Shown in pieces: positions 8,687-63,062 of a DNA stretch of 64,000 nt. The position numbers and the translations under genes were made by a program. The DNA is taken from NCBI GenBank assembly GCA_964016885.1, contig OZ024741.1, positions 346,332,001 to 346,396,000 on the forward strand, read 5' to 3'. The notes beneath the pieces were generated by a model. The model had not been told where the DNA came from, did not search any database, and saw only the letters and a program-made list of their open reading frames with translations. The DNA comes from Eledone cirrhosa. Taxonomy: Eukaryota. The number at the start of each line of letters is the position of its first letter. Position 1 is the stretch's first letter.

Positions 8687-8845
8687 GTATATATATATAT
8701 GTATATATATATGTATATATATATATATATGTATATATATATGTAGGTATATATGTATATATATATGTATATATATATATGTATATATATATGTATATAT
8801 ATATGTATATATATATATGTATATATATATATTTATATATGTATA

Positions 8846-9457
8846 TATAAGTATGTACACGTACATACATATATGAATACAGACGTACAGTAGTATGTAT
8901 ATATATACATACATGCACACATATATATGTACGTATGGATTCACCGAACATTTATTATAATGCTCGGTGTGTTTGTAAACAAACATCCCGTATTAAGCCC
9001 TAGTATCCAGCAAACGTTGCTCGTTTGTTCAACACTGAGAAAGGAACTCTGTACTAGTTTCAAGCTTATTAGCTATCGTCAGCAACGTATAACTTCCTGC
9101 CAGATTGTTGAACGTATATACTTACCTTATTCATATTAACGGCTGAGTAGCCCAATTTGCATATCGAGTGGGTTAATTGGCCGGGTTCACCGAAAACGAT
9201 AAACGGAAAAAATGAAACAATATTTCATTTCCCACTCTTAGTACGGCTGTTACTTAAATATAAGTATGTACACGTACATACATATATGTATACAGACGTG
9301 TACTTACTTATATTTAAGTAACAGCCGTACTAAGAGTGGGAAATGAAATTTTGATTCATTTTTTCCGTTTATCGTTTTTGGTGCACCCGGCCGATTAACG
9401 CAATCGATATGCAAATTGGGCTACTCAGCCGTTAATATGCATAAGGTAAGTATATAT
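8846..9457 (-). mobile_element. non-coding HHR-bearing palindromic/partly tandem element (retrozyme-like), copy 1
   Basis: About 413-nt period (8849/9262) then fold-back near 9297; homologous to 60627-61580. Confidence 0.75.
9046..9088 (-). ncRNA. minimal type I hammerhead ribozyme, family C
   Basis: Minus strand: acgttg CTGACGA tagctaataagctt GAA ACTAGT A cagagt. Confidence 0.8.
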
Positions 9458-14803: not shown

Positions 14804-14848
14804 AGTCACTGAAGAGGTCACAGAGTGTGTGACGAAAGGACTATGACT
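14804..14848 (+). ncRNA. minimal type I hammerhead ribozyme, family E
   Basis: agtca CTGAAGA ggtcacagagtgtgtgac GAA AGGACT A tgact. Confidence 0.78.
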
Positions 14849-15044
14849 ATATATAAACAACTATCTGGTTGTGGAACCAACCAACCAACCAGAAATTTAT
14901 AAGTTTGTAAATTTGTAAATTTATAAATTTATAAATATATAATAAATTGAAGTGAAAGCAACTGGTGCGTGTGTTTCTTATTGGCAACATGACCCTCCCA
15001 AAGTATAACAATATATATATATGTATATATATATATGTATATAT

Positions 15045-17696: not shown

Positions 17697-19800
17697 CTAG
17701 CAGTTTAGCCCGGCCTTGCTCGGGTTTGTTCATTTGCTATGAAAAGTTACATACAGGTAAACGTGGCTTGAAAGCGAATAAGCTTATCAATTAACTGCAT
17801 AAAGCAGTTGAACCGTTTATTAAAAGTTACGAACCAATTAGCATTTTGGTCAATCAATGATGGGTTAATAATCTTCCAATAGCGAATTTAGTAGACCAAA
17901 GTTGCAAGATCGTGGTCCTGATGCCGCTGGGTGTCAGATCTGTCCGCCATGGGATACCCTACCAGGAAATAGTGTTCCAGAGGGCATAGCTCCAACACCT
18001 GCACCAACATCTATAGCACCTCTTTGTAGACGATATTGCGTGTCATCCCTTCAGGAGAGTAAGCAAAAAGTCCATTCCTGCTCCCTACGCGAGAACAGGC
18101 AACATAAAGTTGGCCATGGGAGAAGTATGGCTCCCCCAAATAGATGCCCGCCACCGACAATGTTTGCCCTTGTGACTTGGACATGGCAAAACATGGTCTC
18201 ACTGGGAATTGGGATCGCCGGAAATCGAACGGGATATCTGACGCCGAGGGGAAAAGGTTTATCCTTGGAATGAAAATATTCTCCCCACTTCCGCATCCCG
18301 TTACTATGTTGGCCTCAATCAAGTGGGGTGTCAGTGACTTGACGACCATGCAAGTACCGTTGCACTGCTTTGGTGGACGCAAGTTCCTTATTAGCATAAT
18401 GGGACAGCCAACCCTAAGCTTAATAATGTGAGGTGGGCGCCCTGGGGCTCAAGGGAATTTAATAACTCAACCGGATAATCAACGATATCGTCGGGGTCTG
18501 ACGTCCGGTCGATAGATTTGAAGATGTGCTCTTTACCGGGAATCTTCTCAATCAGCTGCTCGTTAATAAAATTAACCATGGTATTTTTCGGAGCAAGGAT
18601 GTCTTTTTCGCTGAGCCAATTGAGGGTTTTAAAGTTAGATGAGACATCAGAAAAAACTGCTTCCCAAATATCAGAAGGGCTGCTCACAATGTTGCACAGG
18701 GAGTCGATTGCTATGCCGCCCTTGTCATCAGCAGGGACCTTGTCCTCATCAAGTGCTAAAATGTTCTGAGCAAATGCTGCACCCTTGTGTGCCATTGTGC
18801 ACTCATCCCAAACAATGAGGCAACATCTTTTGAGAACCAGAGCTTTGTATAAACTCTTGCTGATATTGCATGTTGGTGTCTCAGTTTTTAATAAATCCAA
18901 AGGGAGTTTAAAGGTTGAATGTGCTGTCCTGCCTCCCGGCAGCAAAGTAGCAGCGATCCCGGACATTGCAACGGACAACGCAACTCTTTTTCCTGATGAA
19001 TCTTAGCGAGAATCAATTTCGTGGGGGGGTCCGTTTTTTATTTGGGGGGATCCGTTTTTTATTGGGGGGAGGGGGGGCGTTTTTTAATTTGGAATCCGTT
19101 TTTTATTTGGAGGGTGTCCGTTTTCATGGGGGTGGGGCGTTTTTTATTGTGTATGGAGGGGTCGATTTTTTTATTGGGGGGGTGTCCGTTTTTATTTGGG
19201 GCGTGGGGGGGGGGGGGGGGGGCGTTTTTATGAGGGGGTGATCCAAATGTATCGAACTGGTAAAGTTTGAAGAAACCAGCCAGAGTGTTCTCTTTTGGAT
19301 CGGCGTCAACTTGGTGACGGTTTGGTCCGTAAAGTAAACCCTTTGCCCATTTTCCAAATGTACCGCATGCTGTACGATGGCGGGGTACCGTTGGTGTAGG
19401 GGTAAACCAAATAGGCGCCAAAAAGCTTCATTGCTACTGATGGATGTACCGCCCCGCCAGGTATTCTGTGACCTCGTCCCTGTTATTTTCAGCTTGAAAT
19501 GCGAACATTGCGGCATCAGAGCCCTTATTTACATATTTGCATATGTATTTTATCGACTTGACGGAGTTGCAAAACTCAACGTTGATGTGGGCGTTGAACA
19601 TCTTCAAGAGAAGCGGGCAGTAATGTGAGCATGTGGCAGCCCTCGTTTTTGCCATTCGACAGTGAACATGTCACATTTTACAGCCCCAATTACTTGACCG
19701 TTTTTTATTAAAGCCATGAGTTTAGCCTGTTTCAGTCTGAACACTGGCAATGAGGTCATGTCTGTTCGAATAATTTTGCCCAGGAAAAAGTTCACTGGTT
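17697..19800 (-). mobile_element. Helitron, internally deleted and decayed
   Basis: Rep motifs VEWQKRGLPHAH, KYICKYVNKG; Pif1 helicase ATLLPGGRTAHS, IVWDE, QFPV..KSQGQT, FSHGQLYVACSRV; 3' hairpin cccgagcaaggccggg then CTAG|T at 17697. Confidence 0.9.
19020..19240. repeat. G-rich degenerate minisatellite (ggggtccgttttttatt) inside the Helitron
   Basis: Direct read; replaces the Rep-helicase junction. Confidence 0.75.
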
Positions 19801-20283
19801 ACATTCCGATTCATATGTTATATGAAGTGTTATTTTGCGGGTTGTTATTTGCAATAAGCCGGTTGAAATGCCCCAGATAAGCCGTATGTCAATACGGAAC
19901 GCTCATTACGGAACGCTCCACTGCAGTGTTGTCATATAGGGAGTGAAGAGCAACAGAGAGAATAAAGCAGTTAAATTATAGAGAGAGGGAATATACGGAA
20001 CGCTCCATTTGATCATAAACATTGTTTCTCTCTATGCAGTGTTGTCATATAGGAAGTGAAGAGCGACAGAGAGAGTAAAGCAGTTAAATTATAGAGAGGG
20101 GGAATGATCATGATCGATTTCTGCCCTTATTGTTGATGGATTTGAAATTTCTTTGCCTCAGGACCTTTTCCTGACCAGAAGCAATAATTGTCCCGACGTT
20201 GAATAAAATCTGTTGGAAATTGTGGACGTGCATATGTTACAAACCTTAACAAACACATCCTCAGATTTATATATTTAGATATA

Positions 20284-23200
20284 CTAGTAGAAGTGCCCGG
20301 CGTTGATTGGCGTTTAATTGCTTTAAAGTACTTTGAATGATTCCACTCAATTATGAATATTGAGGCATTGAAAGTAAATACGGGTAAGTTTGAAAATATA
20401 CAACAATAGCATCTACTCACTATCAGACCGGCAAGACTGCAGTGGTACTGAATAGAGGAGTCACAACACTTCTATGTAGACCAGATCTTTTGTTCTGCCT
20501 TTGGGCGCAAGTATGAATAAGTCCTGCTTGCATCCCACTCTTGAGCATGTGACGTATAATTGGCCGTGTGAGAAGCACGGCTGGGCCAAATGCAGGCGTG
20601 CCGTTGATAGCGTTTGGCCTTGGGACTTGTTGATTGACATCGCGAAGCAAAGTTTAACGGGGAATTGAAGTCGGCGCAGAGTACAGGGGCATTCCGCACC
20701 TGATGGAGTTAATGGTATTCTGGGTATGAAAACGTTTTCTCCAGCGCCGCAGCCCATGAGAATTGTGGCTTCAATTACATGCGGCAGGAGGTTTCTTACC
20801 ACTAACCGTGTTCCGTAGCAGAGACGCGGCGGTTCCAGGTTCCTCAACAGCATGACTGGTGTCCCAACTTTGATGCGCAGTTCATGAGGTGGCAGTCCAG
20901 AGAGGTCCAAGGAATTGAGGAATTCTGTTGGAAAATAGTCAACCTCATCTTTGTCCACCACTTTGTCCACATATTTGTAGGTACGGAGGTTTCCAGGGAT
21001 GTGTTGCAGAGAGTCCTCATTGCTTTTTGCAACTGAGGCATTTTTGGGAGCCAATATGGCTCTATCGCACAGCTAACTCGTGTTTTTATAGTTGGTCGCC
21101 ATATCGAGACAGACAGAGGCTGTGAGGTCGTCAACAGTGTCGGCAACGGGGGCTACTTGCGAGACTGCCATATCTCCAACTGCATCTGAAGGTGCAGTGC
21201 CGTCACCAACTGTTAAGAGGTCCTTTGAGAAGTCGGCTGCTGAGTGGTCGCCGAGCAATTGGGCTCTCATGTTTGTTGTGAGGGTCAGGATTGTCACTTC
21301 CTGCCACAGGGGAGATGACTTAATGCAAGTCCCCACACTGTCGGCCCTGGTGGCTTTTGGAACAACTGGAAGAGTTTGTCGAAAATCGCCAGACAGGAGT
21401 AGAGGTACTTCTCCCATCGGCCGGTTGCATTCCCTGATGTCTCGTAGGGTCCTGTCTAAGCCTCAAGGGACCCTTTATAGGCCATTGTGCATTCGTCCCA
21501 CCCACACAACTAGGTGGCATCTTTTCAAGACTTCAGCTTTGTGAGAGTCCTTGGTGATGTTGCAGATTATTGTGTCGTCTGAAGTCGTGTTGAATGGCAG
21601 TTTAAATGCGGAATGAGCTGTTCTACCTCCGGGCAGCAGAGTTGCAGCAATGCCAGAAGAAGCAACAGCCAGGGCGATTCCTTTCTGCTGTCGCAATTTG
21701 GGGAGGGGAAGTTTATTGACAAATATTTTACCAGTTCCTCCTGCGGCGTCCAAAAAGAAGATACCTCCTCTGCGTTGACGAATGGAAGTGCAAACTGTGT
21801 CATACACCTGCTGTTGGTTCTGCAACAATTTTGGCTCGTTTTCGTTGATGAACAGTTCGAGGTTGTGGACGTCGGCGGCAGTTTCCTGAATTATGCCCGT
21901 CGGAAGTTTGTCCGAGCCCGTTCGCTGAACTTTTGGCAGTCCATAGAATGGAAGGTCATTTCCGCCGGCAGTTAGGATTTTGTCCTCGATGTCAATGAGA
22001 ACATTGTTGAAGAATTCGTCGCTGAGTCGTACGTCGGAATGAGGGAGTAGGAGTTGTTCTTGGTGTATGTAGTCATCGGAAAAGTCCTCTTTGTATTTCT
22101 CCCATAATGATGCAGGGTCGCTTAACTCGCATGTATGCAGTAGCACCGCAAAGAGTTGCCGAAGAGTTCGCGCTGAGCGTATTGTAGCTGCATCCGCCAA
22201 TGTCGCATCCCACTGAGAGCCATCTTCCAGTAGACTCCGTCTAAGGCAGGCTGCGCGGAATGAAGTACAAAGCTCTCCATTGATTGTTTTCAGATCGTCG
22301 AAAGATGTCGGTCCTACCACGTCATGCAGTAGAAGGCGGAGATAAAAGCATTCCTGTTGGTTAGGATGAATGGTGTACACTCTCCCAAGGGTAGGGGACA
22401 TTTTAATGTCTGGATGTCCCTCGACGGTTGTCCTTTCACCTTTCTTAACCAAATTCTGTTGTCTATGTTCCATGTGTAGTATGATGGCACCTGAAAGTAG
22501 AAGATGGTCTTGGCGAAGGGATCGTTTCGGCATAACTTAAAAAATTCCGTAAGTGTGGTGTCCTTGGGTTCCTCTGCTATATCAGCAGCGGTGCACTGCC
22601 AACTGTTTGATTGGGGGTAGTTATGGTGTATTGCAAAGTGGAAGAATCGCCAGAACGCTTCATTGCTGCGGATGTATCGGCCGACCTGGTATCGAGTTAC
22701 TTCGTCTCGGTTGTTCTCCATTGTAAGACCAAAGGACGCAGCAGCGGACCCCTTATTTATATACTTGCAGACGTACTTTATCGATTTGACGGAGTGGCAG
22801 TATTCAACGTTAATGTGGGCGTTAAACAATTTAAGCAGAAGTGGGCAGTAGGGTACAATGCACCGGTTGTCGACGTTGTGATGTGGTGTTTTCGCAACAA
22901 TTCCTCCATCCGCTGGCTCCCTGCCGCGGTATGATGGATACGTTTCTCGGAGGAATGGCCTAGGATACCTCTTGGTGCACCTTCTTTCTTTAATGCATGG
23001 AGAATTCATGTTGAGAGCGTTTCCGCATGGCCCATGAACCATGTGAGCAGTGACGATGTTGTGGAGTTCTCTGTCCAATTTTGGGTCGGGTATTTCTGCT
23101 GAAATTATGCTGTCAATGATGCTTGCGTTGATTTTCGTTATCAGCCAAATGGGTAGGTGAGCGTGTGGCAGGCTTCTATTTTGCCACTCAACGGTGTATA

Positions 23201-24873
23201 CGTAGCACCTAACAGGTCCAAAGGCCTTACCTGATTTTAGGAGTTCAATAAGTTTTGTCAACTTCAAATGAAAGAGACTCGTGCCGTAAGATCGTGTCTG
23301 TCTGACGCCCTTTGTCCGGGGAATAATTCCGCGGTAATTTCATTCCACTTATGGTTGCATGTTGAAGTGATGAAGAGATCCGGTCTGCCGTAGAGACGCA
23401 CGTTCGTCATAGCATCCTGTGTGCGTTCACTCATGTATCGGGGACTCCCAATGAAGGTCGACGGAAGGATACAATGTTTTCCTAGGTTCTCGGGATCGAC
23501 GTCATTCCTTACTCCATCCCGTAAGTGAATGTAGCTGTCCGAACGAAGGCGTGCTTGATTGTTCCTTATGTAGCACAACCTTTCAGATTCCATCTTTGCG
23601 CACGCGTCTACAGCAAGCTGGTTGAAGAGTACTCTTGCACGGTGGAGTTGGTTAAAGCAGCATTCGCGGACCATGAATCGGTAGGTGTAGAATTGCATAG
23701 AGGAAACAGTTTTATTGCTATTGCACAAAGGAATTCCAAAGTGGTATCCATCGTCACCGAATGGGAAAAGTAGGGGATATTGGAATGCGTCGTAGGACCT
23801 ATACGTCTCGCTGATCTGTTGCAGACTATTGTCCCTACACTGAAGTATGATGTCCCGCTTGTACTGTTCTCCGTGAAGAAGCACAGCTATTTCATTGCAC
23901 GTGGGAGTGTTAAAACGTCTGGCGTGGGTGCCTGGTGGTTTCCTGTCAGCGTCGATTATAACAGCAAAATTTGGCAACGGAGCAGCCTCTAATGCGCTTT
24001 TAAAACTGCGAATGTAGTTGTTGTTTTCGTGCAGCATTCTCTTCTGGAGTTGCAACAGAATTTTCATGTCTGTGCCAGGCGAAATTGAAGCGTGTCGTTC
24101 CGCTTGGTCTAAATAGTCAGTGATAAAGTATAGCTGTAGGAACTTGGGCTGTCCGTCTGTCGTAGGCAGTAGCGAACCGATTCTGTGGTAAATTTGTCCT
24201 CGAACTTTAAAGGTAGGCATGAAGCCGTCCTCGCGTATGATGTTAGCTCCGAAAGAGGTCATTTGAGAGGCAGCGTTGTATCTCCTGGAACATCGAAGGA
24301 AGTGTTCCGACTCCGCTGTGGCACCGGTCAGTAGAGACTTCAAAGGTTGTGGTGATTCCTGTAGAGAAGGCAGTTTCACTTTGCCGCCAGAGCAGCACAT
24401 CCCTGAAGTCCCCCCAGGCCATTTTTTTGCCCGACAATATTGGCAAATGGCATACATAGATCCAATCTGAACTTCTGGCATCAGTGCATAGTTTACTGTT
24501 GGGTCATAGGGGAAAGCCTTATGAGACCACTGTGTGCAACTGATCCTCTGTGTACCTCGTTTAACACTCCTGCGGAGTGCGTTGGCGTTTAGCCTTTGTA
24601 ATTGAATTTGCTCAGTCTCTGATGCGCGAACGGAAGCTGTTGAAGCGGCGTCCGTACGTCGACGTCTGGAACGCTGCCCTTCGTCCTCGGCAGCACGTGA
24701 CGCAGCGGTGGAGGCCGCATTTTTGCTTCGTCGTCGAGAATGTTGTTCATCAATTTGCGCTGCACGTGCAAATGCAGTTACAAATGCATTTTCGGAAAGG
24801 CGGATGGTCCTTTTTATTCTGTCTCGGTTGCCCGGGTAATTGCATTTCGAGCTGCATTTTGTGACAATATACC

Positions 24874-24907
<34 letters not shown>

Positions 24908-24908
24908 A
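20284..24908 (-). mobile_element. near full-length Helitron (RepHel), frameshifted
   Basis: Zn finger CQYC..CCSGG; GRPDLFIT; VEWQNRSLPHAH; KYVCKYINKG; DAAGGTGK; GDFRQTLPV; SINKSQGQT; 3' end ..aacgccgggcacttcta CTAG|T at 20284; candidate 5' A|TC at 24908. Confidence 0.92.
20461..24481 (-). pseudogene. Helitron Rep/Pif1-helicase ORF in five pieces
   Basis: ORFs 23264-24481, 22314-23267, 21475-22533, 21073-21417 and 20461-21054 are colinear. Confidence 0.9.
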
Positions 24909-26240
24909 TGAATGATAACTCTTCATAAAACATTAGAGAAATTATAATAAGATTGACGAAGGACGCAAGGCCCCAAAGAAGCAATACTCTGATAAAAAAT
25001 CAAAACATTTTTGTCAAATGAAAGGAGCAGAGAAATTAACTTCTTAGAGTTGTAAATCTCACACCTCTTCTATTAGGCAAAGTTGACATATGTATTTAGT
25101 CAATGTTGGATGTCTTTATACAATATAGTCTGTACCAAAACATATTTTACATTTATTCAACCATTTGTCTCTGAATCCAATTATACCTTGGCAATGCAGT
25201 TCCAAAACAGAAAACTTTTGTCATAAAATTATGGCCACTCCGACCAATGATGTGAGCGGTAGATAGTATCAGCAATGGAAAGCTTGTTTCCTTGGTCCGA
25301 TCTGATGCGTTCCACTCCCATTTTTTAGACGAATAATGTCTGGAATCTTGTTCATCAAACTCTATCCCTCAATATGCCAAACTACATCCTTCATTCACAA
25401 ACTGTAATATTATGCTTCTACTAATATTAGAAACTAGTCTGCGCAAAATGCTAGGTGCTTTGTTAGAAAAGTTAAATACAGAAACCAATTTTTCATCTTG
25501 CTCATTGTTATGACTAAAGTTATTTTTATCTACTGATAAGGTGGATAGATTTCCTTGTAATGCGTAATAATATTTCGGTAAAATGATTTATTAAATAATT
25601 AAATATTTTCCTAAATCTATCCATCATACATTCTTTCATGCGTCATACTATCAATACGTTTTCGTCCTTCCAACTTTTTCAGTATAATCCCAGGAATGTT
25701 CTTTGTAAAACAGTTTGTTCTATGAGTGCACACAATTAGGAATCATCATAGGAATTATGTAGTTATGTTTTTTATTGTCTAACAGTTTAATAGTTGACTA
25801 TTTGTTCTTTTTCTCTGTGTTTCTGATTTTACTCCGTTTATTCCATCTTGTTCTGGCATAAAGGAAAGCTAGAGTAGACAGTCATTGAGAAAATTATAGA
25901 ATTTACGTTCAAAGAGGTTTGACAAAACAAGCAATGCCTAATAATTAGGAAAATGACCATCCCCAAATATAACATGTTTCAACACACGATTTCATAATGA
26001 GAATCTTGCAACTCAAATACATAACCCCCGCCCCCACATATATATAGGATAACAAGATATCGTTTAAGGTAATCCAGCTAGAGCTTGTGAGTACTCTGTA
26101 ACGAGGATTTGGTTGGGTATCGACTGTAATCAAGGTCGAATGACGTAACGTCTAACGATCAGTGACTTTTAGACACACCGGATTAATGAATTAATTGTTA
26201 AACCCTATTGTAAAGCCGACCATGTTATTCTTCCTTCTTT

Positions 26241-26963: not shown

Positions 26964-27040
26964 ATATAATGTTATATATATATATTTAGTTGTAGTTAAT
27001 AGAATTATGGCTACATAGTAGAAAGTTCATTAAATACATT

Positions 27041-27226
27041 ATAATTGTTTCTACTTTCGGCACAAGGCCAGCAATTACCCAGTACATTACTGGTACTTTA
27101 TTTTATCGACCTCGTAAGGATGAAAGGCAAAGTTAACCTTGGCGGGATTTGAACTCAGATCGTAAAGGGACTTAACTATGCTGGAAAGCATGTCCAACCC
27201 TCTACCAATTCTGCCAATCCACCGCC
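27041..27226 (-). mobile_element. tRNA-derived SINE (octopod-like family)
   Basis: B box gagttcaaatccc, conserved body ctttgcctttcatcc..gtcgataaaataaagtacc; about 9 copies in window. Confidence 0.85.
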
Positions 27227-27681
27227 CTCATTATAATGATACAAGATCAGCATGAAAAAGATATCACTCTTACTCACATTTCCTTTCATTAAGTGATCAA
27301 TTAACTGGAATTTATAAATATTAAGTCATTATAAATGATCCCATATGGATGAAGTGAAATTTGAAATAGGCATTATTATAGCTGACATTGAAGCGGGAAT
27401 TCAACGTTATAATTCGCATCACTGTTATGAACTTGCATCATTGTTATGAAATCTTACGGAAGAACAACTTTGGCTGTTACATTCTGCGGTTTCAAAGGCC
27501 AATATTTTTATCTCCAAATATTGTTTGTAAAAAAAAAAAAAATTGCCTAATATGTTTAAAATACTAATGTCTTTCTCACCGACTGGAGACAAAGGAAAAC
27601 GAATCAGTTTTCAGGACCCCGGATGATTTAGCCATAGGGTACTATATACATTTCAACAGAACCATTTTATAAATAGATAAT

Positions 27682-27870
27682 AATTGTTTCTACTTTTGGC
27701 ACAAGGCCAGCAATTACCCAGTGCATTAGTAGTACTTTATTTTATCGACCTCGTAAGGATGAAAGGCAAATTTAACCTCGGCGGGATTTGAACTCAGACC
27801 ATAAAGGGCTGTAACTCTTTGCTGCAAAGCATGGCGTCCGACTCTCTACCGATACTGCCAAACGACCGCC
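27682..27870 (-). mobile_element. tRNA-derived SINE with 14-bp TSD
   Basis: TSD tataaatagataat at 27668-27681 and 27871-27884. Confidence 0.9.
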
Positions 27871-27893
27871 TATAAATAGATAATATATATATT

Positions 27894-29209: not shown

Positions 29210-29214
<5 letters not shown>
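28750..29214. repeat. long inverted repeat (216-bp arms, 33-bp spacer) with an HHR in each arm
   Basis: 28750-28965 is the reverse complement of 28999-29214. Confidence 0.93.
29056..29143 (+). ncRNA. type I hammerhead ribozyme, U3-A8 core variant, family I (mirror 28821-28908 on -)
   Basis: tcctc TTGATAA gtcggca..tgccac GAA ACTACGTAGT C gagga; stems I-III pair; GUC site. Confidence 0.78.
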
Positions 29215-29248
<34 letters not shown>

Positions 29249-29250
<2 letters not shown>

Positions 29251-31775
29251 GATATTAAATAAATGGAAACTATATTTATAAAACCATATTTATTTCATTA
29301 TATATATTTCAGGGATATCATATTAAAAATATGTTATGCCTTCTTCAGACAAAATACAATATATTACAATGAAGCGTTAGCTAGAGCAGGATATAGTGAT
29401 AAAATTATGTACATAGATAATAATAGACAAACTAACCAAAATAACAACAATTTTAATTACGGCAACAACTTTAACAACTATAATAGAAAGCATTACAATA
29501 ATTCCAAAAGCCAAAAAAGAAATAGAACTAGGAATATAATATGGTTTGCCCCCCCCCCCCCCCCCTTTCTCACTAAACATTAAAACCCACATCGCTAAAC
29601 TATTTTTTAATGCTCTTGATAATCGCTTCCCTAGAACACATAGGTATCACTCAATTTTCAATAGACATACTATAAAATTAACTTACTCATCCACCAAAAA
29701 TTTAGCACAAAATATTAATAGAATAAATAATAGGAATTTAAAACCTAGCCAAAATACCGATAATAGCATAAATAATATCCAAGTTAACAAATGTAACTGT
29801 AGAGATAGATCTAAATGCCCGTTAAATAACAATTGCTTAGTTAAAAATATAATATACAACTGTAATGTAAAAACGGACTTAAATTCTTTTAACTATGTTG
29901 GTTCCACCTCGACAGAATTTAAACTTCGCTATAATAACCACAAGAATTCTTTCACAGATCCAAGCAAAAAATCCTCAACATCACTATCAGGCCTACTCTG
30001 GCAACTTAGGCATGATAACGTTGGATATTCAACGGCTTGGAATATAGTCTCAAGAGGGATTCCTTTTAATTCATCCTCTGAGACATGTGACCTCTGCGCG
30101 GAGGAGATATTCTTTATACTAAAATATAAAAATTCCCTTAATTTACGGACAAATTTATTCAGTTGCTGCAGACATAGATTGAACTCAACTTTTAAATATA
30201 AATATAAATTTAAAATGTAGTATATTTAATTTGGTTTATAATTATTTATGAAACTCGCCGATAAATCTTTCGATTCCTTTTTATTTTAAACATTCTTCAT
30301 GAATAATTAAACTACCCTAAAAGCTGATGCTCCAAATATATCGAATAAATTTTACACTAGATAAATTTCTATATTAAATATAAGACCATCTGTAGATCAA
30401 ATGGGTATCCTAAACTTTTGGAATGTTTTCTGCTAGACAGGATTTGGTAAATAATTTTTGGTTTTGTTTGCTTTTGATTCTGATGCTTATAACGAACTTG
30501 GCAATATATTGTCAATTAACTTCGAAGGGTTGATCTCTGTGGTTGATTTGCGGGGCATACTATGTTTTATTTTTATTTTAATATTTTTAATATTTTTAAT
30601 ATTTTTATTTTTAATATTTTTTTGATTTTTTGTTTTTTATTTACTTTTTGTTTCTGATATTTTTATTGATATATTGATATCTGTTCTCTATTTATGCTTG
30701 AACGATAATCATGTAGAGTAAAGACATGTATAGTATTGTTAAAATTAATGTAGACTCTATATATATTTGTGTGTATGTACACATATATGTATACTTAAAT
30801 TTTTATAGCACAATGGGAATGTTTTCGTGTGAAATAGGAATTTGCAGAGCTGATCACGTGAATTCACATGGATGTGTATAGTATAAAATCTGGGATAACC
30901 TTCTATTTTATCTCAACTCTAATTATAAACCTAGGAATTTTAGACTAGACATATGATCATTATTTTTAACACATTATTGATACGTGTCTCATTCATGAAT
31001 ACTGATATTTACATTATAATGCCTGGTTTATACGAATTGATATTTTTTTACATTGATGAAACATAGTGTTTTAAATCTGCCTCGTTTTTGTCTGGATATT
31101 TTTCTTTTCTCTCTATGTAACGGCTGTTTTCTCTCTTAACCACATATATCTCTCTCTACATTAATACTACAGCTAAATAAATAAATAAATAAATAAATAT
31201 ATCATTGATACATCATTCAACTGGTGCCCAACTACCTAGTTTCTTTCTCTCTATCTCTATCTATATCTATTTCTCTATATTTTCTCTCTCTCTCTCTCTC
31301 TCCTCTCTTCTCTCTCTCTCTCTCTCTATCTATCTCCCTCTGTGTTTTTTCCTCTCTCTATATATCTCTCTCTGTTTCTTTACATGAATTTCTTCTCTCT
31401 ATCTATCTCTCTATATCTATCTCTTTCTATTTAGTTGCATGCATTTCTTCTTTTTCTTCGTTTTTCTTTCTTTCTTTTTATAACTGTCCCTAATATTTTT
31501 TCACTACCAAATCAACTTTTCAAATAGAAGTCGAAGTTGAAAGGTATGTCGAATCTATCTATTTATAAGACTGTTTATATTGTATTTTGTCTGAAGAAGG
31601 CATAACATATTTTTAATATGATATCCCTGAAATATATATAATGAAATAAATATGGTTTTATAAATATAGTTCCTATTTATTTAATATCGTAAATATACTC
31701 CAAATACTTCTTGAGTGCTTTTATATCAGTTATAAATATTTACTCGTTGTTAACCCAACAATTTAAATACAACTT

Positions 31776-31780
<5 letters not shown>
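29249..31780 (+). mobile_element. 5'-truncated Hydra-like PLE with inverted pLTR
   Basis: GIY-YIG ORF 29546-30220 close to 3885-4478; family-A HHRs at 29286-29362 (-) and 31577-31653 (+). Confidence 0.9.
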
Positions 31781-31844
<64 letters not shown>

Positions 31845-31926
31845 GTATGGTTGCACGAAAAATACTACCGTAGGCCGTATGTTTAGTATATGAATTCGTC
31901 GCCGGAGACGAATTCATATACTAAAC

Positions 31927-32014
31927 ATATCTGACGACCTCTCGATTACAGAAACCGGTTCGATCTATAATAGGTCTTGTCTTGAGCTGATCGATAGTGA
32001 AACATATGTAATAT
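31927..32014 (+). ncRNA. type I hammerhead ribozyme, family J (mirror 35526-35613 on -)
   Basis: atat CTGACGA cctctcgat..atcgatagt GAA ACATATGT A atat; stem II imperfect; preceded by a 23-bp hairpin at 31878-31929. Confidence 0.65.
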
Positions 32015-32073
32015 ATTATTAAATATGTTATGCTGCAAAACTGAATCCTTGTTCCTTATCCTTATAATATAGA

Positions 32074-32169
<96 letters not shown>

Positions 32170-32919
32170 AAGAGTGAAGAATAACATGGTCGACTGTGCA
32201 AAAAAGGTTTTATTTACAGTATTAACATTTGTTCATTGATCAGGTGAGTCTCAAGGCCGCTAATCACTCGAAGTTGCGTCACTCGACGTTAAATACAGTG
32301 TGTGTCTCTGATCAATCATCGGAATTCCGATGATTTGATCAGAGATACACAAGAATAACCTGCATGGGAATTCTCGCAAACTCGCAACCTGACTAAGGAA
32401 ACCTCTTTTTGAGGCAACGCCGTACGTTAAAACTATCCATAGTACAGAGTACTCACAACCTCTAACTGGAATACCTAAAACGATAACTTGTTATCCCATA
32501 TATATATATATATAAAATAAGATATGATAGAAGAAAACAGATACTAAAAATTGAGGCTTATAATTTAAGATTGCAGTGTAATTTAATGAAAAGTGCAAAG
32601 AAATGAAAACGATTACGATATTCTGTAAATTCTGGGAGGAAAGGGAAACACCACTCTACGTTAGATATTAAGGAAGCATTTAAATTAGAATGTTCGATAT
32701 GATTTATAGAATTTTCTAAAATAAATACAAATCGCTATGTTTACAACGTGCCTTAGTTTATCATTTTAAAACTTTATCTAATACACTGTAGTTGCTTAGA
32801 ATATATGGAAAAAGTGTATGTTAGACTATAGGTGGAAATTATTCCATAAAAAGGAGACACAGAAATGGAATACTAGACACGATAAGATCTCACCGACATT
32901 TATTTTATTTGTATTTTAA

Positions 32920-35288: not shown

Positions 35289-38653
<3,365 letters not shown>

Positions 38654-43434: not shown

Positions 43435-43694
43435 ATAGTAGTATCGGTAGAGAGTCGGACACCATACTTAATAGCAAAGAGTTACGGCCTTTTATGATCT
43501 GAGGCTGTGGATTGGCAGTATCAGTAGAGAGTTGGACACAATGCTTAGAAGCAAAGAGTTACGGCCCTATATGATCTTAGTTCAAATCCCGCCGAGGTTA
43601 ACTTTACCTTTCATCCTTACGGGGTCGATAAAATAAAGTACCAGGAATGTACTGGGATAATTGCTGGCCTCTTGCCAAAAGTAGAAACAATTAT
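43435..43694 (+). mobile_element. SINE with duplicated 5' head
   Basis: Partial head 43435-43502 followed by a full copy. Confidence 0.85.
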
Positions 43695-44396
43695 TTTATA
43701 GTAGTTCTCCGTGACCTTAGCCTTTCATCTTTCCAGCCTCGAAAAAATAAATAACTGCAAATTATAGATGTTGAAGTAATCAACTAGTCCTTTCCATTAA
43801 CTTTTAGCCCTCAAAATCAAATGTAATTATATTCACAGAATGTAATCGATGGTATGCCATATGAAATATCTCTTTTTATATTTTTGTATATTTCTCTATA
43901 TTTTGAGTTCAACTCCTTCGCAGCTAAAATGAGATACAGAAGCAAAACATCAATAAATGTATGGCCTTATGAAAAAGAAATGGACTACTATATGTTGAGG
44001 AATTTGCTAAAATCCGTATCACAAAAGCGAAAAGTGATGCACAGGCTTTCGGATTCGCTTATAAGATGAATAAAGAGCAAAATATGAAGTACACAGGATT
44101 TTCAAATTGTTCCTTTGTAAAATCATATATCAAAATACTACGTACCCTCGAATAAATCTAGCGATTGAAAAGAGGGAGAGTTTATGTGGTCATTCGAACG
44201 TGTGAAAAAGCAATTATACAGAGACACAACATAAAGCAAACAGAAAAGGCAGCTTGGGAACAACGAAAACATAAAACAAAAAAACAATGAATAGGTTAGT
44301 AAATAGGATTTTCATAGGTGGGTTACGTTAGAGAGTACTTGACAAACATTTATTAACAAATTCCCTACATTTAAATGTATTTATGAGAGCACAGGC

Positions 44397-45376: not shown

Positions 45377-45759
45377 TAAATATATATGTAAAAGGTAAAT
45401 AGAAATAACAACACAATCGGTACAGTGTACAAAATGAATATATTAGGTTACTCCTTCATAAAAAAAAAATAAGAAAGTAGAGAGATTGAAGGGACGGGCG
45501 GGGTGGAATTGGAAAAAAGTTTTTAGAGAAAAATAACAGGTCCATTCGTGTTTCTATCTCTTGTACATAAATACACACAAACACACAGACACACACACAC
45601 AGACGCACACACACACACATACACTCACACACACACACGCACACATACACACATATATATATATATGTTTTGCTAGGTTTTTTATATGAAATAGTGTGTC
45701 GAAACAAATATTGTTATACTTGGGGAGTGTTATATTGTTGTAATAATATTGCCAGAAAT

Positions 45760-45943
45760 AATTGTTTCTACTTTTGGCTCAAGGCCAGCAATTATCCAGT
45801 ACATTACTGGTACTTTATTTTATCGACCTCGTAAGGATGAAAGGCAAAGTTAACCTCAGCGGGATTTGAACTCAGACCGTAAAGACACGTAACTATACTG
45901 GAAAGCATGGCGTCCAACTTTCTACCGATACTGCCAATTCACC
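45760..45943 (-). mobile_element. SINE inserted into pLTR
   Basis: TSD ccagaaataat on both sides. Confidence 0.88.
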
Positions 45944-46012
45944 CAGAAATAATAACAGAACACACTCACTGTTTGGTTGGTTTTCCCTTCTGTATCTTTT
46001 AGGAGGAACATA

Positions 46013-54189: not shown

Positions 54190-54593
54190 AGGCACAAGGC
54201 CAGTAATTTGGTGGGAGGGGAAAGTAGATTAAATCGATCCCAGTACGTTACTGGTGCGTTATTTTCTCGACCACGTAATGATCAAAGGCAAAGTTAACCT
54301 CAGCGGGATTACAACCGTAAATGACCATAACTCTATGCTGCAAAGCATGGTGTCCAACTCTCTAGCGACACTGACAATTCACCGCCCTCACTTTGGATAA
54401 TATAATTGTTTCTATTTTTTGGCACAAGGCCAGCAATTACACAGTACATTACTGGCACTTTATTTTATCGACGCTGTAAGGATGAAAGGCAAAGTTAACC
54501 TCGGCAGGATTTGAACTCAGATCATAAAGGGACGTAACTCTATGCTTCAAAGCATGGTGTACGACTCTCTACCGATACTGCCAATCCACCGCC
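54190..54593 (-). mobile_element. two tandem SINE copies
   Basis: 54190-54387 and 54402-54593, separated and flanked by a ttggataatataat-like target repeat. Confidence 0.85.
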
Positions 54594-55161
54594 CTTGGAT
54601 AGTATAATGCAAGATATATTGTCGAAATAGAGGTTATGTTGTCCAAGGACACATGCTTAATTATGACTGACCAAAATCTAAATAACAAGAGACTATTTGC
54701 AAAAGGTGGCAGTGGTTAGATGAAATGACTTCATAGTGGCAATAAAATGTTGCACAAATTAAAATGCCGATTACAAGGATGGAACGAGAAAGATTATACA
54801 TCGTCCTTCGACTTATTACAAATAACTGTAAAATCCTATCAAATTAAGCCTTATTGTCTTTAAAAGAAAGGGACACATTGATGAATACAGTCCGAGAAAT
54901 ATAAAAAGACAGAATAGGTGGTGATATCTGAAATGCCATGTCTGATCAAATTAAAAATAACAACGAATTTTAGAAATATATTGTATGATAGGATTTTGAT
55001 ATCAACACCGAACAAAATAGAAAGAGCCCGGCAATATGATGACGGTCGAGGAAATGGAAAATAACGAGATAATGAAATTGCCCTCAAAAACTCGAAATGC
55101 CAAAATTCAAATCATACTACATACGTCCCTTGTACTTTTTGCATAAATCATTCAAAATTAT

Positions 55162-55870: not shown

Positions 55871-55960
55871 GTTTCTTTTAAAATATTAGAATTAATATTT
55901 TGTAATGTGTTATGAGTAGCGATTGCAGCGTATAATGTATATAATTCGTGCATATTATTA

Positions 55961-56342
55961 GGTGAATTGGCAGTATCGGTATAGGGTTGGACGCCATGCT
56001 TTCTAGCATAGTTACGTCCCTTTACAGTCTGAGTTCAAATCCCGCCGAGGTTAACTTTGCCTTTCATCCTTACGGGGTCGATAAAATAAAGTACCAGTAA
56101 TGTACTGGGTAATTGCTGGCCTTGTGCCTGAAGTAGAAACAATTATTAGGCGATGGATTGGCAATATCAGTGGAGGGTCGGACACCATGCTTTGCAGCAT
56201 AGAGTTACGGCCCTTTGCGGTCTGAGTTCAAATCCCGCCGAGGTTAACTTTGCCTTTCATCCTTACGGGGGTCGATAAAATAAAGCACCCGTAATGCACT
56301 GGGATAATTGCTGGCCTTGTGCCAAAAGCAGAAACAATTATT
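55961..56342 (+). mobile_element. two tandem SINE copies
   Basis: 55961-56146 and 56149-56342. Confidence 0.88.
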
Positions 56343-57775: not shown

Positions 57776-57799
57776 TAATATTCATTTATTAATATTAAC

Positions 57800-60511
57800 C
57801 TGCCGTCGCAGGTCGATGAACAAACAGAAGCACAATTTAATATAGCTAGATCTAAACTTAGAAATATTATCGAACAGTATACCAAGAAACAACATAGAAT
57901 GGAGGCCCAGCAACTGGGAGAAAAATCTGCAAATGGCTTGCGTAAGCTCATGCAGCGCTCGCGTAATGGAGAGATTGCATGCTTTCCAACAGACAAGTCT
58001 GGCACAATGTCTGGCACAATGTCAAACTACATCCAGCCAATGCAACTCCACATCACTAACACAAGAGAAGTAACACCACAAGAGCATGAGGATAGGGAGA
58101 AAACCCTCAACGTTCATATGATGATGTGGACAAACATAATGCAGCCAAATAAACGGACTGCCAACAACTTCCAAGACTGGAACAATGACGTTCCAGCACT
58201 GTATGGGCTTCGAAAAGACCATAAGACGAACAGTGACCCAGTCACAGGACCACCAACACGGCCAGTCTGTGGAGCTAACATTTCTAGTAACTACAGACTT
58301 TCCTACTTCCTCTCCCTGATCGTACGTCCCATCATTGAAATGTCCACGGATATATTTGACAGCACAGATGACCTCATCAGCAGAATCAGCGAAAATAACC
58401 GATCAAGGGACCTAACAGACTGTATAATAGGTAGTATGGATGTTGTGTCCCTATACCCATCCATTGGATTTTGCTGTGGAGAAATCCGTGGAAATGATCA
58501 GTGAGAGCAATGTTGAATTCCATGGGATTGATACCAGTGAGCTGGTACTCCTACTTAAACTCACATATAATAATGATTATCTAGATACATATGACCTTAG
58601 CAATCTCTGCCCCACAAGGCCAGCAAGAGGCAGATCACATACCATTACCTCAATGGCCAAGAAAACCCACACAGAAAGATGGAACGAGTGAACCAGAGCC
58701 ATACGGGGCCCCGACAACCATGATGAACTGAAGAAAATTATTGCACATGCGGTGAAGGCCAGTATAAAACTAACCCTTAAGGAACATATGTTCAAATTTA
58801 ATGGAAAAACATATGCCCAAGAGGAGGGAGCAGCCATTGGTGTTAGCATTGCAGGTGACATAGCTAATCTATTCATGGTATGGTGGGACAATAAACTTAA
58901 AGAACAATTAGAAGACAGCAACCTCTTAACCCTGATAATGTACTCTCGCTACGTTGATGATATAAACATCGTAGTAAAAACACCCCCACTAGAGAACAGT
59001 CAGGAATTAAAGAAAAACACCATGGGAAGCATCCAGCAAATAGCTAACTCTATGCACCAGAGTATTAGGGTTACTATAGACTACCCAAGCAAACACCCCA
59101 ACCATCGATTACCTGTACTAGACACAGACCTCTGGTTAGAAACGATTAATAACAAAAGACAAATCCTCCATTCCCATTATGCCAAACCCATGACTTCCAA
59201 ATATCTGATCCACCGAAACTCAGCTGTTTCGGATCACACCAAAATCAACATACTGATTGCGGATTTAGTACGGGTGATGAGAAACGTGTCCCGCATGTGC
59301 AACCCCAAAGAACTAGAGAGACACATACAACACTTCACCCACCGTATGCAGATCTCTGGTTACAATCCGAGATATAAAATCAGAGTATATAGAGGAGCCA
59401 GAACCAAATAGGAAAAATGGTAAATAATGATACAAATGGGACCTGCCCCTTGTATAAGAGCAAATTTTGGAATAGAATAGAAAGAACTAGGAATAAGGTT
59501 AATAGAATAAACTCATGGTATGACAGCAATAAATACCACAGTGTAATGTTCATCAATACAACCCCTAGAGGTGAATTAGCTTACAAATTTAGAAGGGCCC
59601 TAGATAAACTTAAACTCAAAATTAAGATAGTAGAAAGACCAGATACCTCCATAAAAACACTTATTAGTAATACATACTCTTTTCAAAGACCTCTCTGTAT
59701 AGATAAGAAATGTATAATCTGTAAACTAAGCCCCCATATTAACTATAAAACTAGAAATATAGTATATAGCTTTAGATGTAGTGAAGGACAATGTAAATAT
59801 AAGAATATAGTGTACATAGGGGAGACAGCTCGTAGTATAGGAGAACGATTAAATGAACACTGGCGAGAGCTTCATGATAGAAAAGATTCATCAGTACTCC
59901 ACCAACATGCTAAAATAGAACATAAGGGAAAATTAGAGAACATAGAAATAAAAATAAAATCTACGCACAGAAAAGACGCAATGTTTAGACAAATCACAGA
60001 GGCAATAAACATAAATGAACTCCAACCAAAATTAAATAGAAACATGAAGGCAATTGCTATTGCCTTCATGTTTTCTATTTAATTTCAACTTACAACTCAC
60101 CACTTACAATTAAGGACAAAATGAAAACACACACCCATAGAACAAACAACCAACCAGCAACATGTAAATAAACAAATAAATAAACAAATAAAAATACACA
60201 CAGACACCCGGATGTAACACATGCGCAAACTAAGCACACAACACACACAAAAACAAGATGGCGTAGGACAGAACAAAGGAGAGGCACAAAACAAAGAGAA
60301 GACTTCCCAGTCACTGAAGAGGTCACAGAATGTGTGACGAAAGAACTTTGACAATATATGAACAACCGTCCGGTTGTGGAACCAACCAACCAACCAACCA
60401 GAAAGTTATACATTTTTAAATTTATAATTTAATTTATAATAAATTCGAGTGAAAGCACTGGTGCGTGTGTTTCTTATTGGCAACATGACACTCCCAAAGT
60501 ATAATAATATA
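57800..60511 (+). mobile_element. Penelope-like element (Nematis-like), near full RT plus GIY-YIG, disabled
   Basis: TDKSG, LYGLRKDHK, TRPVCGA, MDVVSLYPSI, GAAIG, RYVDD, LPVLD, NIVY..VYIGETARS..R..EH; frameshift and stops; HHR-bearing 3' end. Confidence 0.92.
60309..60352 (+). ncRNA. minimal type I hammerhead ribozyme, family E
   Basis: agtca CTGAAGA ggtcacagaatgtgtgac GAA AGAACT T tgac. Confidence 0.75.
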
Positions 60512-60564
60512 GGTTTCAACACACATTTTCAGATAAAGAATCTTGCTAAACAAATTCAGAAACG

Positions 60565-60626
<62 letters not shown>

Positions 60627-60630
<4 letters not shown>

Positions 60631-61576
60631 GAAAAAAATGAAACGATATTTCATTTCCCACTCTTAGTACGGCTGTTACTTAAATATAAGTATGTACACG
60701 TACATACATATATGTATACCGACGTACAGTAGTATGTATATATATATATACATATATGCACACATATATATATGCACGTATGGATTCACCGAACATTTAT
60801 TATAATGCTCGGTGTGTTTGTAAACAAACATCCCGTATTAAGCCGTAGTGTCTAGCAACCACCGTTGCTCGTTTGTTCAACACTGACAAAGGAACGCTGT
60901 ACTAGTTTCAAGCTTGTTAGCTATCGTCAGCAACGTATACCTTTCTGCCAGATTGTTGAACGTATATACTTACCTTATGCATATTAACGGCTGAGTAGCC
61001 CAATTTGCATATCGAGTGGGTTAATCGGCCGGGTGCACCAAAAACGATAAACGGAAAAAATGAAACAAAATTTAATTTCCCACTCTTAGTACGGCTGTTA
61101 CTTAAATATAAGTAAGTACACGTCGGTATACATATATGTATGTACGTGTACATACTTATATTTAAGTAACAGCTGTACTAAGAGTGGGAAATGAAATATC
61201 GTTTCATTTTTTCCGTTTATCGTTTTCGGTGCACCCGGCCGATTAACCCACTCGATATGCAAATTGGGCTATTCAGCCGTTAATATGCATAAGGTAAGTA
61301 TATACGTTCAACAATCTGGCAGGAAGGTATACGTTGCTGACGATAGCTAACAAGCTTGAAACTAGTACAGCGTTCCTTTGTCAGTGTTGAACAAACGAGC
61401 AACGGTGGTTGCTAGACACTACGGTTTAATACGGGATGTTTGTTTACAAACACACCGAGCATTATAATAAATGTTCGGTGAATCCATACGTGCATATATA
61501 TATGTGTGCATGTATGTATATATATATATACATACTACTGTACGTCGGTATACATATATGTATGTACGTGTACATA

Positions 61577-61580
<4 letters not shown>
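60627..61580. mobile_element. non-coding palindromic retrozyme-like element, copy 2
   Basis: Arms fold back around 61120-61145; about 422-nt period in the left arm (60655/61077); HHR on each strand; (TA)n on both sides. Confidence 0.8.
61331..61373 (+). ncRNA. minimal type I hammerhead ribozyme, family C (mirror 60894-60936 on -)
   Basis: acgttg CTGACGA tagctaacaagctt GAA ACTAGT A cagcgt; GUA site. Confidence 0.88.
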
Positions 61581-61629
<49 letters not shown>

Positions 61630-61711
61630 ATGTATAGTGAATAAAATGTATAATGCATATAAGTATACATAATGAATACATGTGACGAATATATATATAT
61701 AGCAGTTCTCT

Positions 61712-63062
61712 GACTACAACCAAAGAGACATAATCAGAGTATACAAAGGAGCCAAGGAGAAGTATAAAACCCCCATAGAAATGGACACGAAAGGAATTTG
61801 CCCATTATACAGGAGCAAATCAGTGAATAGCTTAGATAGGACTAAACATAAGATAGGGAAAGCCACTTCATGGTACGACAACCAGAGATACCAGAGTGTC
61901 ATATTCGGGGATGCTACCGCTGGGGGGAAATTAGCTAACCAATGTAGAAAGGCCCTAAGAAAGACCCACTTAAAGATTAAAGTGGTAGAAAACCCAGGAA
62001 CTACCATAAAATCTGTGATTAGCAAAACATAGACATTTAAGAAAACCCACTTTAATAAAAAGACATGTGTTATATGTAAAATGAACCCCCGGATAAACTG
62101 TAAAACTAGAAATGTAGTCTATAGCATAAGATGTACAGAGGTTACTTGCAGAAACATGACAACATACATAGGTGAGACAGCTCGAAGCATAAGAGAAAGA
62201 ATAGACCAGCACTGGTGGAATTAAAAGGACAAAAAATTGTTTCAGTACTGTGATGTTGCTATTGCATTCATGTTTTCTATTTAATTTTGGTTGGAGTTCA
62301 TTTATGTTTATTGCCTCTGTGATTTGTCTAAACATTGCGTCTTTTCTGTGTAGATTTTATTTTTCTGTGTGTAGATTTTATTGTTTCAGTACTATACGAA
62401 CACGTCCGACAAAGACATCACGGTAATATACACAAAATAGAAATTAAAATAATATCTAAAATAGAAATTACTCAACAGGTAGGTAAATAACTGAAGCAAG
62501 TGAAATAGAGCTTAGAAGACCAAAGTTAAACAGAAAAAATCGAATGGAATAACAACAATAACCTTACACAAACAAACAATACTGACTTAAGGGAAATATA
62601 CATAAATAAATAAATATACACTTAAGTGCAATAATAACAAACACATATAAACACACACTAGTGAACAAAGATAGAATACAAAAACCAAAACACATACACT
62701 CAAACGCGAACATTATACACACGCGCAAACGCATGCGCAGAGATGAAGACAAGGAATAATAAATAAATAAAATAAAAATCGTGTAGTCATTACAATACAA
62801 TACAATACAATAGGAGGGAACATAATAATAGTACCACTGATGATGTTGCAGATGTGCAACGATAGAACGTTGATAGACTATATGCATATATATATATTTA
62901 TATCTGTATTTTTAACCGTTGGTCAATCAATGATAAACTTTGACTGCCAAATAAATTAACCATGGAGATATAAAAGATACAGAAGCGAAAACAGTGAGTG
63001 TGTTCTATTATTATTTCTGTCAATATTATTACAACAATATGAATCTCCCCAAGTATAACAAT
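61712..63062 (+). mobile_element. second Nematis-like PLE subfamily, 3' fragment
   Basis: CPLYRSK..SWY..KIKVVENPGTTIKSVISKT..NVVYSIRC..YIGETARS; family-M pLTR. Confidence 0.82.

What the first reader, a model, noticed from the sequence alone, without database searches (positions are those of the whole stretch)
60627..61580. Palindromic, circularly permuted ~420-nt non-coding ribozyme element with an HHR on each strand
Seen: no ORF. Each arm is slightly more than one ~420-nt unit (terminal redundancy), the arms are joined head-to-head with 3' ends running into (TA)n, and an intact HHR lies on both strands (60894-60936 -, 61331-61373 +). Known: non-LTR retrozymes are tandem HHR monomers of a few hundred nt that yield circular RNAs. 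Inference: the redundancy fits reverse transcription around a circular RNA, and the fold-back form would give a long hairpin RNA from either strand.
Basis: partly seen in the sequence, partly recalled or inferred. Interest (0 to 1): 0.85.

Follow-up and report, generated by a model that had tools for sequence, protein, structure and literature searches.

The report
Two-armed retrozyme with Penelope integration signature
This hairpin-shaped repeat is one of hundreds of copies of a 422-base non-coding unit with a hammerhead-ribozyme motif; such copies almost always have one short-ended and one long-ended arm, which likely records a Penelope-type enzyme copying the RNA from both cut strands of the target at once.

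Summary
The palindrome, the 422-nt unit, the (TA)n flanks and both hammerhead motifs are real. The unit is a young non-coding tandem family (1,875 exact ribozyme cores), never found fused to a Penelope-like (PLE) ORF in 80 loci: a likely non-LTR retrozyme. Unit-plus-redundancy is not a family trait: arms run 39-6,798 nt. The 3' ends are not freely permuted but sit at two fixed points about 60 nt apart, the PLE 'tail'. Head-to-head copies carry one end of each type in 39 of 41 loci, as do a sister retrozyme (13/13) and an autonomous PLE (19/19, by eye). Nine of 39 arm pairs cannot arise by simple fold-back; about 10 are expected for independent cDNAs. Best reading: a PLE enzyme primes both nicked strands, one start site each. 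One locus with a genome-unique haplotype in every unit favours a monomer, perhaps circular, template. No RNA data were available. This copy has one ribozyme per arm and a mosaic centre, so it is likely a dead end. Scan notes report head-to-head PLE ends in other genomes.

The parts
60625..61141 (-). Long-ended (tailed) arm: unit positions u183-u422 then u1-u275 (u1 = first base after the GUA site)
61120..61586 (+). Short-ended arm: u175-u422 then u1 to about u212-216 (the last bases match the TA target, so the end cannot be placed exactly)
60625..60683 (-). About 60-nt PLE-type 'tail' (u217-u275) between the two fixed 3' end points; predicted AT-rich stem-loop
61120..61141 (.). Head-to-head junction in an imperfect palindrome of the unit; found only here and at window 9281-9315 in the whole genome
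61331..61373 (+). Type I hammerhead motif: helix I 6 bp, helix II 4 bp over a U-U mismatch, helix III 2 bp with palindromic loop; predicted cut after 61367
60894..60936 (-). Identical hammerhead motif in the left arm; predicted cut after 60900
60567..60627 (.). (TA)n target microsatellite, left; also the 3' landing site of the neighbouring PLE
61579..61636 (.). (TA)n target microsatellite, right
8838..9456 (.). Second, older copy in the window, in opposite orientation, with the same junction and inner-arm alleles; its second arm stops at u359

Best explanation
The palindrome is one insertion of a 422-nt non-coding tandem unit with a hammerhead motif (a likely non-LTR retrozyme), probably integrated by a borrowed Penelope-like RT/endonuclease that likely primed reverse transcription from both nicked strands, once at each of two fixed RNA sites about 60 nt apart, and joined the two 5'-truncated cDNAs head to head. 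Shown: the unit family, two fixed 3' ends, one of each per head-to-head copy, (TA)n targets, 12-13-bp target duplications around the whole two-armed insert, arm pairs that are not nested, and no ORF. Inferred: a staggered double nick, a PLE dimer holding one RNA or sibling RNAs, strand displacement, joining by short or palindromic microhomology, and a template that spans the ribozyme site (uncut multimer or religated circle; I put the circle at about 50%). This copy has only one sense ribozyme per arm, so it could not release a unit-length monomer by double cleavage and is probably a dead-end product.
For: Family: 1,875 exact ribozyme cores against 0 in the control; tandem arrays at 422-nt spacing. 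Ends: two fixed classes, u212-219 and u273-275. One of each in 39 of 41 scored head-to-head loci, p = 4e-10 against 0.5, and 20 of 20 in the position-sampled set. One exception (L056) has arms from different subfamilies at 4 markers. Sister family of 466 nt (homologous over its length): 13 of 13 by eye. Autonomous young PLE: 19 of 19 outer ends by eye; a stricter script gave 16 of 17. Target duplications of 12, 12 and 13 bp around the whole insert at three loci outside TA runs. Non-nested pairs: 9 of 39, against 10.2 (range 6-15) expected for independent arm lengths and 0 for pure fold-back; arm lengths uncorrelated, rho 0.14; also 3 of 11 in the sister family and 7 of 19 in the PLE (by eye). 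Arms share template: marker u317 is concordant in 16 of 16 young loci, p 5e-5, and L078 carries a haplotype found nowhere else in all 9-10 segments of both arms. Literature: a PLE protein nicks and extends both strands, starts at two internal sites that bound the tail, and is predicted to be a dimer (PMC11167929).
Against: No mobilising partner was identified: the unit shows no similarity to the pLTRs of the two PLE families examined. Symmetric junctions are enriched (10 of 41, p 6e-4), as fold-back would predict, and the focal junction is one of them. Two of 41 loci break the rule (L056 long/long, L060 short/short). The focal copy is a mosaic: its arms differ at marker u327, its inner left arm carries older alleles, and its junction is shared with 8838-9456, so it was altered or templated in a more complex way. 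Old long arrays (L081_82, L079, L114) have many shared variants among units, so they also grew as satellites after insertion. In vitro, no difference in start site between top and bottom strands was seen, and pairing within single products was not reported (PMC11167929).
Confidence: 0.7

Rival explanations
1. Fold-back self-priming: one cDNA (or an antisense RNA) snaps back at a palindrome and copies itself to make the inverted arm, as proposed for rotifer Penelope elements.
For: Symmetric junctions in 10 of 41 loci against about 7% expected; arms usually share alleles; the focal junction lies in a palindrome. The model is stated in PMC3846280 (passages).
Against: 9 of 39 arm pairs cannot be copied from each other, matching the number expected for independent cDNAs. 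7 of 19 PLE pairs have a tailless arm longer than the tailed arm. It does not explain why the second arm stops at exactly the other fixed site. Two same-sense cDNAs would also anneal preferentially at palindromes (inference).
Confidence: 0.15
2. The unit is a solo pLTR of an autonomous PLE that was not sampled; short copies are 5'-truncated PLE insertions and the arrays grew only by unequal crossing-over.
For: PLE-type tail, TA targets and inverted arms; retrozymes match pLTRs in Xenopus, with local amplification proposed (bioRxiv 10.64898/2026.07.22.740005). Old arrays show satellite-like shared variants. The partner search was not exhaustive.
Against: 0 of 80 loci have the unit fused to a PLE ORF. 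53 of 78 arms exceed one unit and read from unit into unit, never into coding sequence. A three-family profile found 590 hits in all fetched loci and the window, all assignable to the three non-coding families. Young multi-unit arms are homogeneous on both sides of the junction.
Confidence: 0.1
3. One reading: a self-contained two-sided ribozyme element whose palindrome is functional, giving circles or long hairpin RNA from either strand.
For: A read-through transcript would form a 93%-paired hairpin; at least 23 of 39 position-sampled loci are head-to-head, so the genome holds many potential dsRNA sources.
Against: Junction position and arm length vary freely between loci. The palindrome is not itself a repeated unit: this junction occurs twice in 3 Gb, both within 52 kb. 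The ribozyme is fully paired in the hairpin, and each arm has one sense ribozyme only.
Confidence: 0.05

Closest known systems
Non-LTR retrozymes of animals (Cervera and de la Pena 2020, PMC7229834; passages and Discussion read)
   Same: Non-coding AT-rich tandem unit of 150-450 nt with a type I hammerhead in each unit, target duplications longer than 4 bp, dispersed and arrayed copies. The U-U mismatch under helix II with a 2-bp helix III is like axolotl HHR_Amex2.
   Different: Two fixed 3' ends, a tail, head-to-head arms and TA targeting are not in the passages I saw ('inverted' occurs 0 times in the main text; supplements not read). Circular RNA and cleavage are shown there and untested here.
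Animal retrozymes as non-autonomous PLE derivatives (bioRxiv 10.64898/2026.07.22.740005; parts 1-3 of 5 read, through the Discussion)
   Same: PLE link, co-occurrence with PLEs, monomer-to-multimer range.
   Different: That link rests on pLTR homology and co-occurrence, mostly in vertebrates, with local amplification proposed. Here there is no pLTR homology to the PLEs checked, but the insertion ends carry the PLE integration signature.
Insertion units of EN+ Penelope-like elements: pLTR, inverted 5'-truncated copy, one-sided tail (PMC3846280 and PMC8557442, passages; PMC11167929, main text parts 1-2 of 4)
   Same: [quoted passage not shown]
   Different: No ORF; the tail is about 60 nt (73 in the sister family) rather than 30-40; the arms are made of tandem units; strict one-of-each pairing and non-nested arms are counted here.
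L1 twin priming
   Same: Both target strands prime cDNA, which yields an inversion.
   Different: L1 arms cover different parts of one RNA and the second site is variable. Here both sites are fixed, 60 nt apart, and the arms overlap almost completely.

Membership tests
Non-LTR retrozyme | Tandem units of about 150-450 nt, each with a type I hammerhead | tested here: met
   422-nt period, arrays of 2 to over 30 units, ribozyme core in the units. The focal copy itself has no two same-sense ribozymes.
Non-LTR retrozyme | No coding capacity | tested here: met
   Longest stop-free stretch 53 codons in six frames of the circularised unit
Non-LTR retrozyme | Low GC; target duplications longer than 4 bp when present | tested here: met
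   GC 0.34 in the 2-kb bin; 12-13-bp duplications at L037, L051, L058
Non-LTR retrozyme | No LTR, primer-binding site or polypurine tract | tested here: inconclusive
   No LTR-internal-LTR layout in 80 loci; primer-binding site and polypurine tract were not searched
Non-LTR retrozyme | Hammerhead fold kept by selection | tested here: met
   Core C-U-G-A-N-G-A and G-A-A-A invariant in 14 diverged copies, 7 pairs with double changes; no Rfam hit
Non-LTR retrozyme | Self-cleavage of the RNA | not testable with these tools
   Indirect only: 9 of 131 arm 5' ends at u1-u10, p 0.004; the 21-nt bins show comparable peaks elsewhere
Non-LTR retrozyme | Expressed as linear and circular monomer RNA | not testable with these tools
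   No RNA holder listed
Autonomous EN+ Penelope-like element | ORF with RT and GIY-YIG endonuclease | tested here: not met
   No ORF in the unit; nearest PLE coding hits are 198 nt or more away and separated by TA runs
PLE-type insertion product | Two fixed 3' ends bounding a tail | tested here: met
   homologous end points in the sister family
PLE-type insertion product | Adjoining inverted 5'-truncated copy; microsatellite target | tested here: met
   23 of 39 position-sampled loci head-to-head; TA flanks
Solo pLTR of a resident PLE | Sequence identity to the pLTR of an ORF-bearing PLE | tested here: not met
   No similarity to the two families examined; other PLE families of the genome were not surveyed, so this is not exhaustive

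The most novel reading that the evidence does not exclude
A Penelope-like RT dimer loads on one retrozyme RNA circle, primes both nicked target strands at two obligatory, non-equivalent start sites and rolls round the circle in both active sites. This would explain at once the PLE tail, the head-to-head inversion and homogeneous retrozyme arrays, and L078 would be a direct genomic footprint of rolling-circle reverse transcription.
Probability: 0.4. Interest if true: 0.75.

Novelty: new member of a known kind. Interest (0 to 1): 0.52.

Why it matters
Two questions are open in the papers read: which enzyme mobilises animal retrozymes, and how PLEs form their tandem/inverted insertions and one-sided tail (PMC7229834 Discussion; PMC8557442 passages). 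These loci bear on both. A non-coding ribozyme repeat carries the full PLE integration signature without pLTR homology to the PLEs checked. Three families obey a near-strict one-short/one-long rule (71 of 73 loci) with arm pairs that fold-back cannot make. The prediction, paired use of the two start sites within single products, can be tested in the existing in vitro PLE system. The palindrome and its two ribozymes are a by-product and not a new kind of element.

Tried and rejected
Rfam scan of the window: 0 hits at gathering level. MFE folding of the lone ribozyme: not better than shuffles. RNA runs: no RNA holder listed; six holders of unstated kind from four coded organisms. Laying four of them showed contigs covering the unit and ends at both fixed sites in some runs, but no branch into a partner element. 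Autonomous partner: an apparent fusion in L039 (older unit copy next to a young PLE) was rejected as a nested insertion into the unit's own TA-rich part (inference). The young PLE's pLTR is unrelated. A profile of three unit families found no ORF-linked relative in the fetched loci. Pfam found only a weak RT hit in the left-hand PLE (E 5e-5) and nothing in the young PLE; its identity rests on motifs read by eye and on relatives, a few of which carry GIY-YIG or RT domains. The bacterial promoter scan was uninformative. In one search I mis-indexed helices II and III; those rows were discarded and redone. The star-phylogeny test supports 'born at once' only for young arrays; old arrays fail it. 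Literature searches for a two-strand priming model of PLE inversions found only PMC3846280 and PMC11167929 as relevant. The library lacks most subscription papers, including the 2005-2006 PLE reviews that these papers cite, and no supplements were read, so the model may be in print.

Full report
Observation. The stretch is a real inverted repeat: arms 60681-61123 and 61144-61586, 443 nt, 98% complementary. The unit is 422 nt; I number it from u1, the first base after the predicted GUA cut at 61367. The left arm (minus strand, 60625-61141) runs u183-u422-u275. The right arm (plus strand, 61120-61586) runs u175-u422 to about u215. The arms overlap by 22 self-complementary bases, and both end in (TA)n. 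Hammerhead cores lie on both strands as stated. The unit has no stop-free stretch over 53 codons.

The ribozyme. It is a canonical type I motif: helix I 6 bp with a further helix beyond an internal loop, helix II 4 bp over a U-U mismatch, and helix III 2 bp with a palindromic loop. That kind is described as needing a tandem partner to cut well (PMC4209133, passages), and it resembles axolotl HHR_Amex2 (PMC7229834, passages). Rfam misses it and the lone motif folds no better than shuffles. In 14 hand-picked copies from this and two related families the catalytic core is invariant, and 7 of 17 pairs change on both sides (0 of 500 shuffles). That control ignores relatedness, and the helix II changes come from one sister-family sequence. 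Activity is not shown. A weak indirect trace is that 9 of 131 arm 5' ends fall in u1-u10 (p 0.004; 5 of 65 in the position-sampled set, p 0.02).

The family. G000 holds 1,875 exact matches to the 34-nt core and 0 to the reversed control. The first 100 matches fall into 41 clusters, which extrapolates to several hundred loci (inference). I fetched 39 loci around the best hits and 39 of the 41 clusters; with the two window copies that makes 80 loci. Copies range from partial units to arrays of more than 30 units. None of the 80 is fused to a PLE ORF. Two related non-coding families exist; one has a 466-nt unit and at least 40 copies identical over the query. Contigs from runs of four coded organisms cover the unit; no RNA run was listed. 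The nearest named homologue of a resident PLE protein is from Octopus vulgaris at 69%, so the host is probably an octopus (inference).

The ends. 3' ends are not permuted at random and are not at the ribozyme site (one exception, L064). They fall at u212-219 (short) or u273-275 (long), about 60 nt apart, and nearly always run into (TA)n. This is the PLE tail, which marks two internal RT start sites in vitro (PMC11167929). One search gave 51 head-to-head rows. I dropped 2 duplicated rows of L074, the complex L061, and 7 rows with one end lost to a gap, truncation or later change. Of the 41 left, 39 have one short and one long end (p 4e-10 against 0.5), and 20 of 20 do in the position-sampled set. 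The exceptions are L060 (short/short) and L056 (long/long), whose arms come from different subfamilies. Two more loci scored as single hide a very short inverted arm of the complementary type (L086, L096, by eye). The 466-nt family gives 13 of 13, two of them with a gap of about 135-140 nt between the arms (by eye), at homologous positions. A young autonomous PLE (150 near-identical endonuclease hits, frames up to about 1,200 aa; RT, CxxC-linker and GIY-YIG motifs by eye) has tails of about 57 or 43 nt and gives 19 of 19 by eye. A stricter script scored 16 of 17; its one miss paired an outer end with an internal pLTR, and it failed to read three loci. At three loci outside TA runs a 12-, 12- or 13-bp duplication flanks the whole two-armed insert, so both arms arrive in one event.

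How the inversion forms. If one cDNA folded back on itself, one arm would have to be contained in the other. That fails in 9 of 39 loci (one marginal), against 10.2 expected if arm lengths were independent, and the lengths are uncorrelated. It also fails in 3 of 11 sister-family loci and 7 of 19 PLE loci (by eye). Both arms are therefore likely copied from RNA. They usually come from the same template lineage: marker u317 agrees in 16 of 16 young loci (p 5e-5) and u327 in 14 of 16. Junction overlaps are mostly 0-5 nt. Ten of 41 junctions are symmetric (p 6e-4), many at palindromes of the unit. This favours fold-back for that subset, but it is also what two same-sense cDNAs annealing to each other would give (inference). 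The published enzyme nicks and extends both strands, has two start sites and is predicted to be a dimer (PMC11167929). The simplest joint reading is one start site per subunit and strand, which that paper does not report. The one-sided tail is known qualitatively and was ascribed to endonuclease resolution (PMC8557442), and the inversion to self-priming (PMC3846280).

Circle or multimer. 53 of 78 arms exceed one unit and 20 exceed two, so the template spans the ribozyme site: an uncut multimer or a religated circle. For the circle: young arrays are homogeneous (0-5 singleton changes over 4-21 units in seven of them). L078 carries two otherwise rare alleles in every segment of both arms. 8 of the 13 genome-wide exact matches to one allele's context are in L078, and the other 5 lack the second allele. 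Against: a homogeneous source array missing from the assembly, or later expansion, would look the same. L103 and L036 have mixed haplotypes within an arm. Old arrays share many variants among units, as satellites do. I put the circle at about even odds.

This locus. It fits the rule (long left, short right) but is not a clean case. The inner left arm carries older alleles than its own outer repeat, the arms differ at u327, and the junction with those alleles is shared only with the copy at 8838-9456, 52 kb away. A local duplication, gene conversion or template switch is implied; I could not resolve which. With one sense ribozyme per arm it cannot release a monomer by double cleavage, and in a read-through RNA the ribozyme would be paired in a 93%-paired hairpin. 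The PLE remnants on either side (57779-60566 and 61702-62236) belong to families with other pLTRs and merely share TA targets.

Verdict. A new member of the non-LTR retrozymes, with expression and cleavage untested. The palindrome and the ribozyme on each strand are integration by-products. The value lies in the counted end-pairing rule and the non-nested arms across three families. Earlier scan notes describe head-to-head PLE ends and a 5' bias at the ribozyme site in other genomes; I saw them after my own counts, did not test them, and they are not used as support.

Noticed in passing
window 8838-9456 and 61104-61138: The two window copies share one head-to-head junction and inner-arm alleles found nowhere else in the genome, though their other subfamily markers differ; local duplication, conversion or template switch.
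   Followed up: partly
L098 6156-9134: Three related ribozyme-repeat families nested in one TA cluster (422-nt, an about 80%-identical family and a 466-nt family); the latter two are head-to-head with one short and one long end, and the 466-nt family has a fully compensated helix II.
   Followed up: partly
G000, e.g. L148-L167: Very young, abundant autonomous PLE (RT, CxxC linker, GIY-YIG, asparagine-rich insert) with two long-end variants (+43 and +57 nt); its own hammerhead-like motif looks degenerate in L039.
   Followed up: partly
window 57779-60566: Broken PLE of another family with its own hammerhead-like motif at 60314; further pieces at about 13377-15015.
   Followed up: partly
window 164, 1382, 2424, 29348, 31591, 35961, 38202, 47704, 57684; 11821, 34923: At least two further repeat families with hammerhead-like cores whose helix III region is a TA run; several lie next to PLE-like coding fragments (3456-5337, 29361-30621, 36929-38189).
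   Followed up: no
window 29213-32257 and 35289-38337: 3-kb inverted duplication at 99% identity.
   Followed up: no
window 18394-24922 (minus strand): Frames resembling a Helitron Rep-helicase (recognised from memory, not searched).
   Followed up: no
L064 5624; L032 4127; L084 5621-5641: One copy's 3' end, and several 5' ends, lie exactly at the predicted ribozyme cut; L032 has eight full units starting at u1.
   Followed up: partly
window 27040-27890, 43503-43699, 45757-45951, 54237-54620, 55954-56342: Several copies of a roughly 190-nt SINE-like repeat.
   Followed up: no
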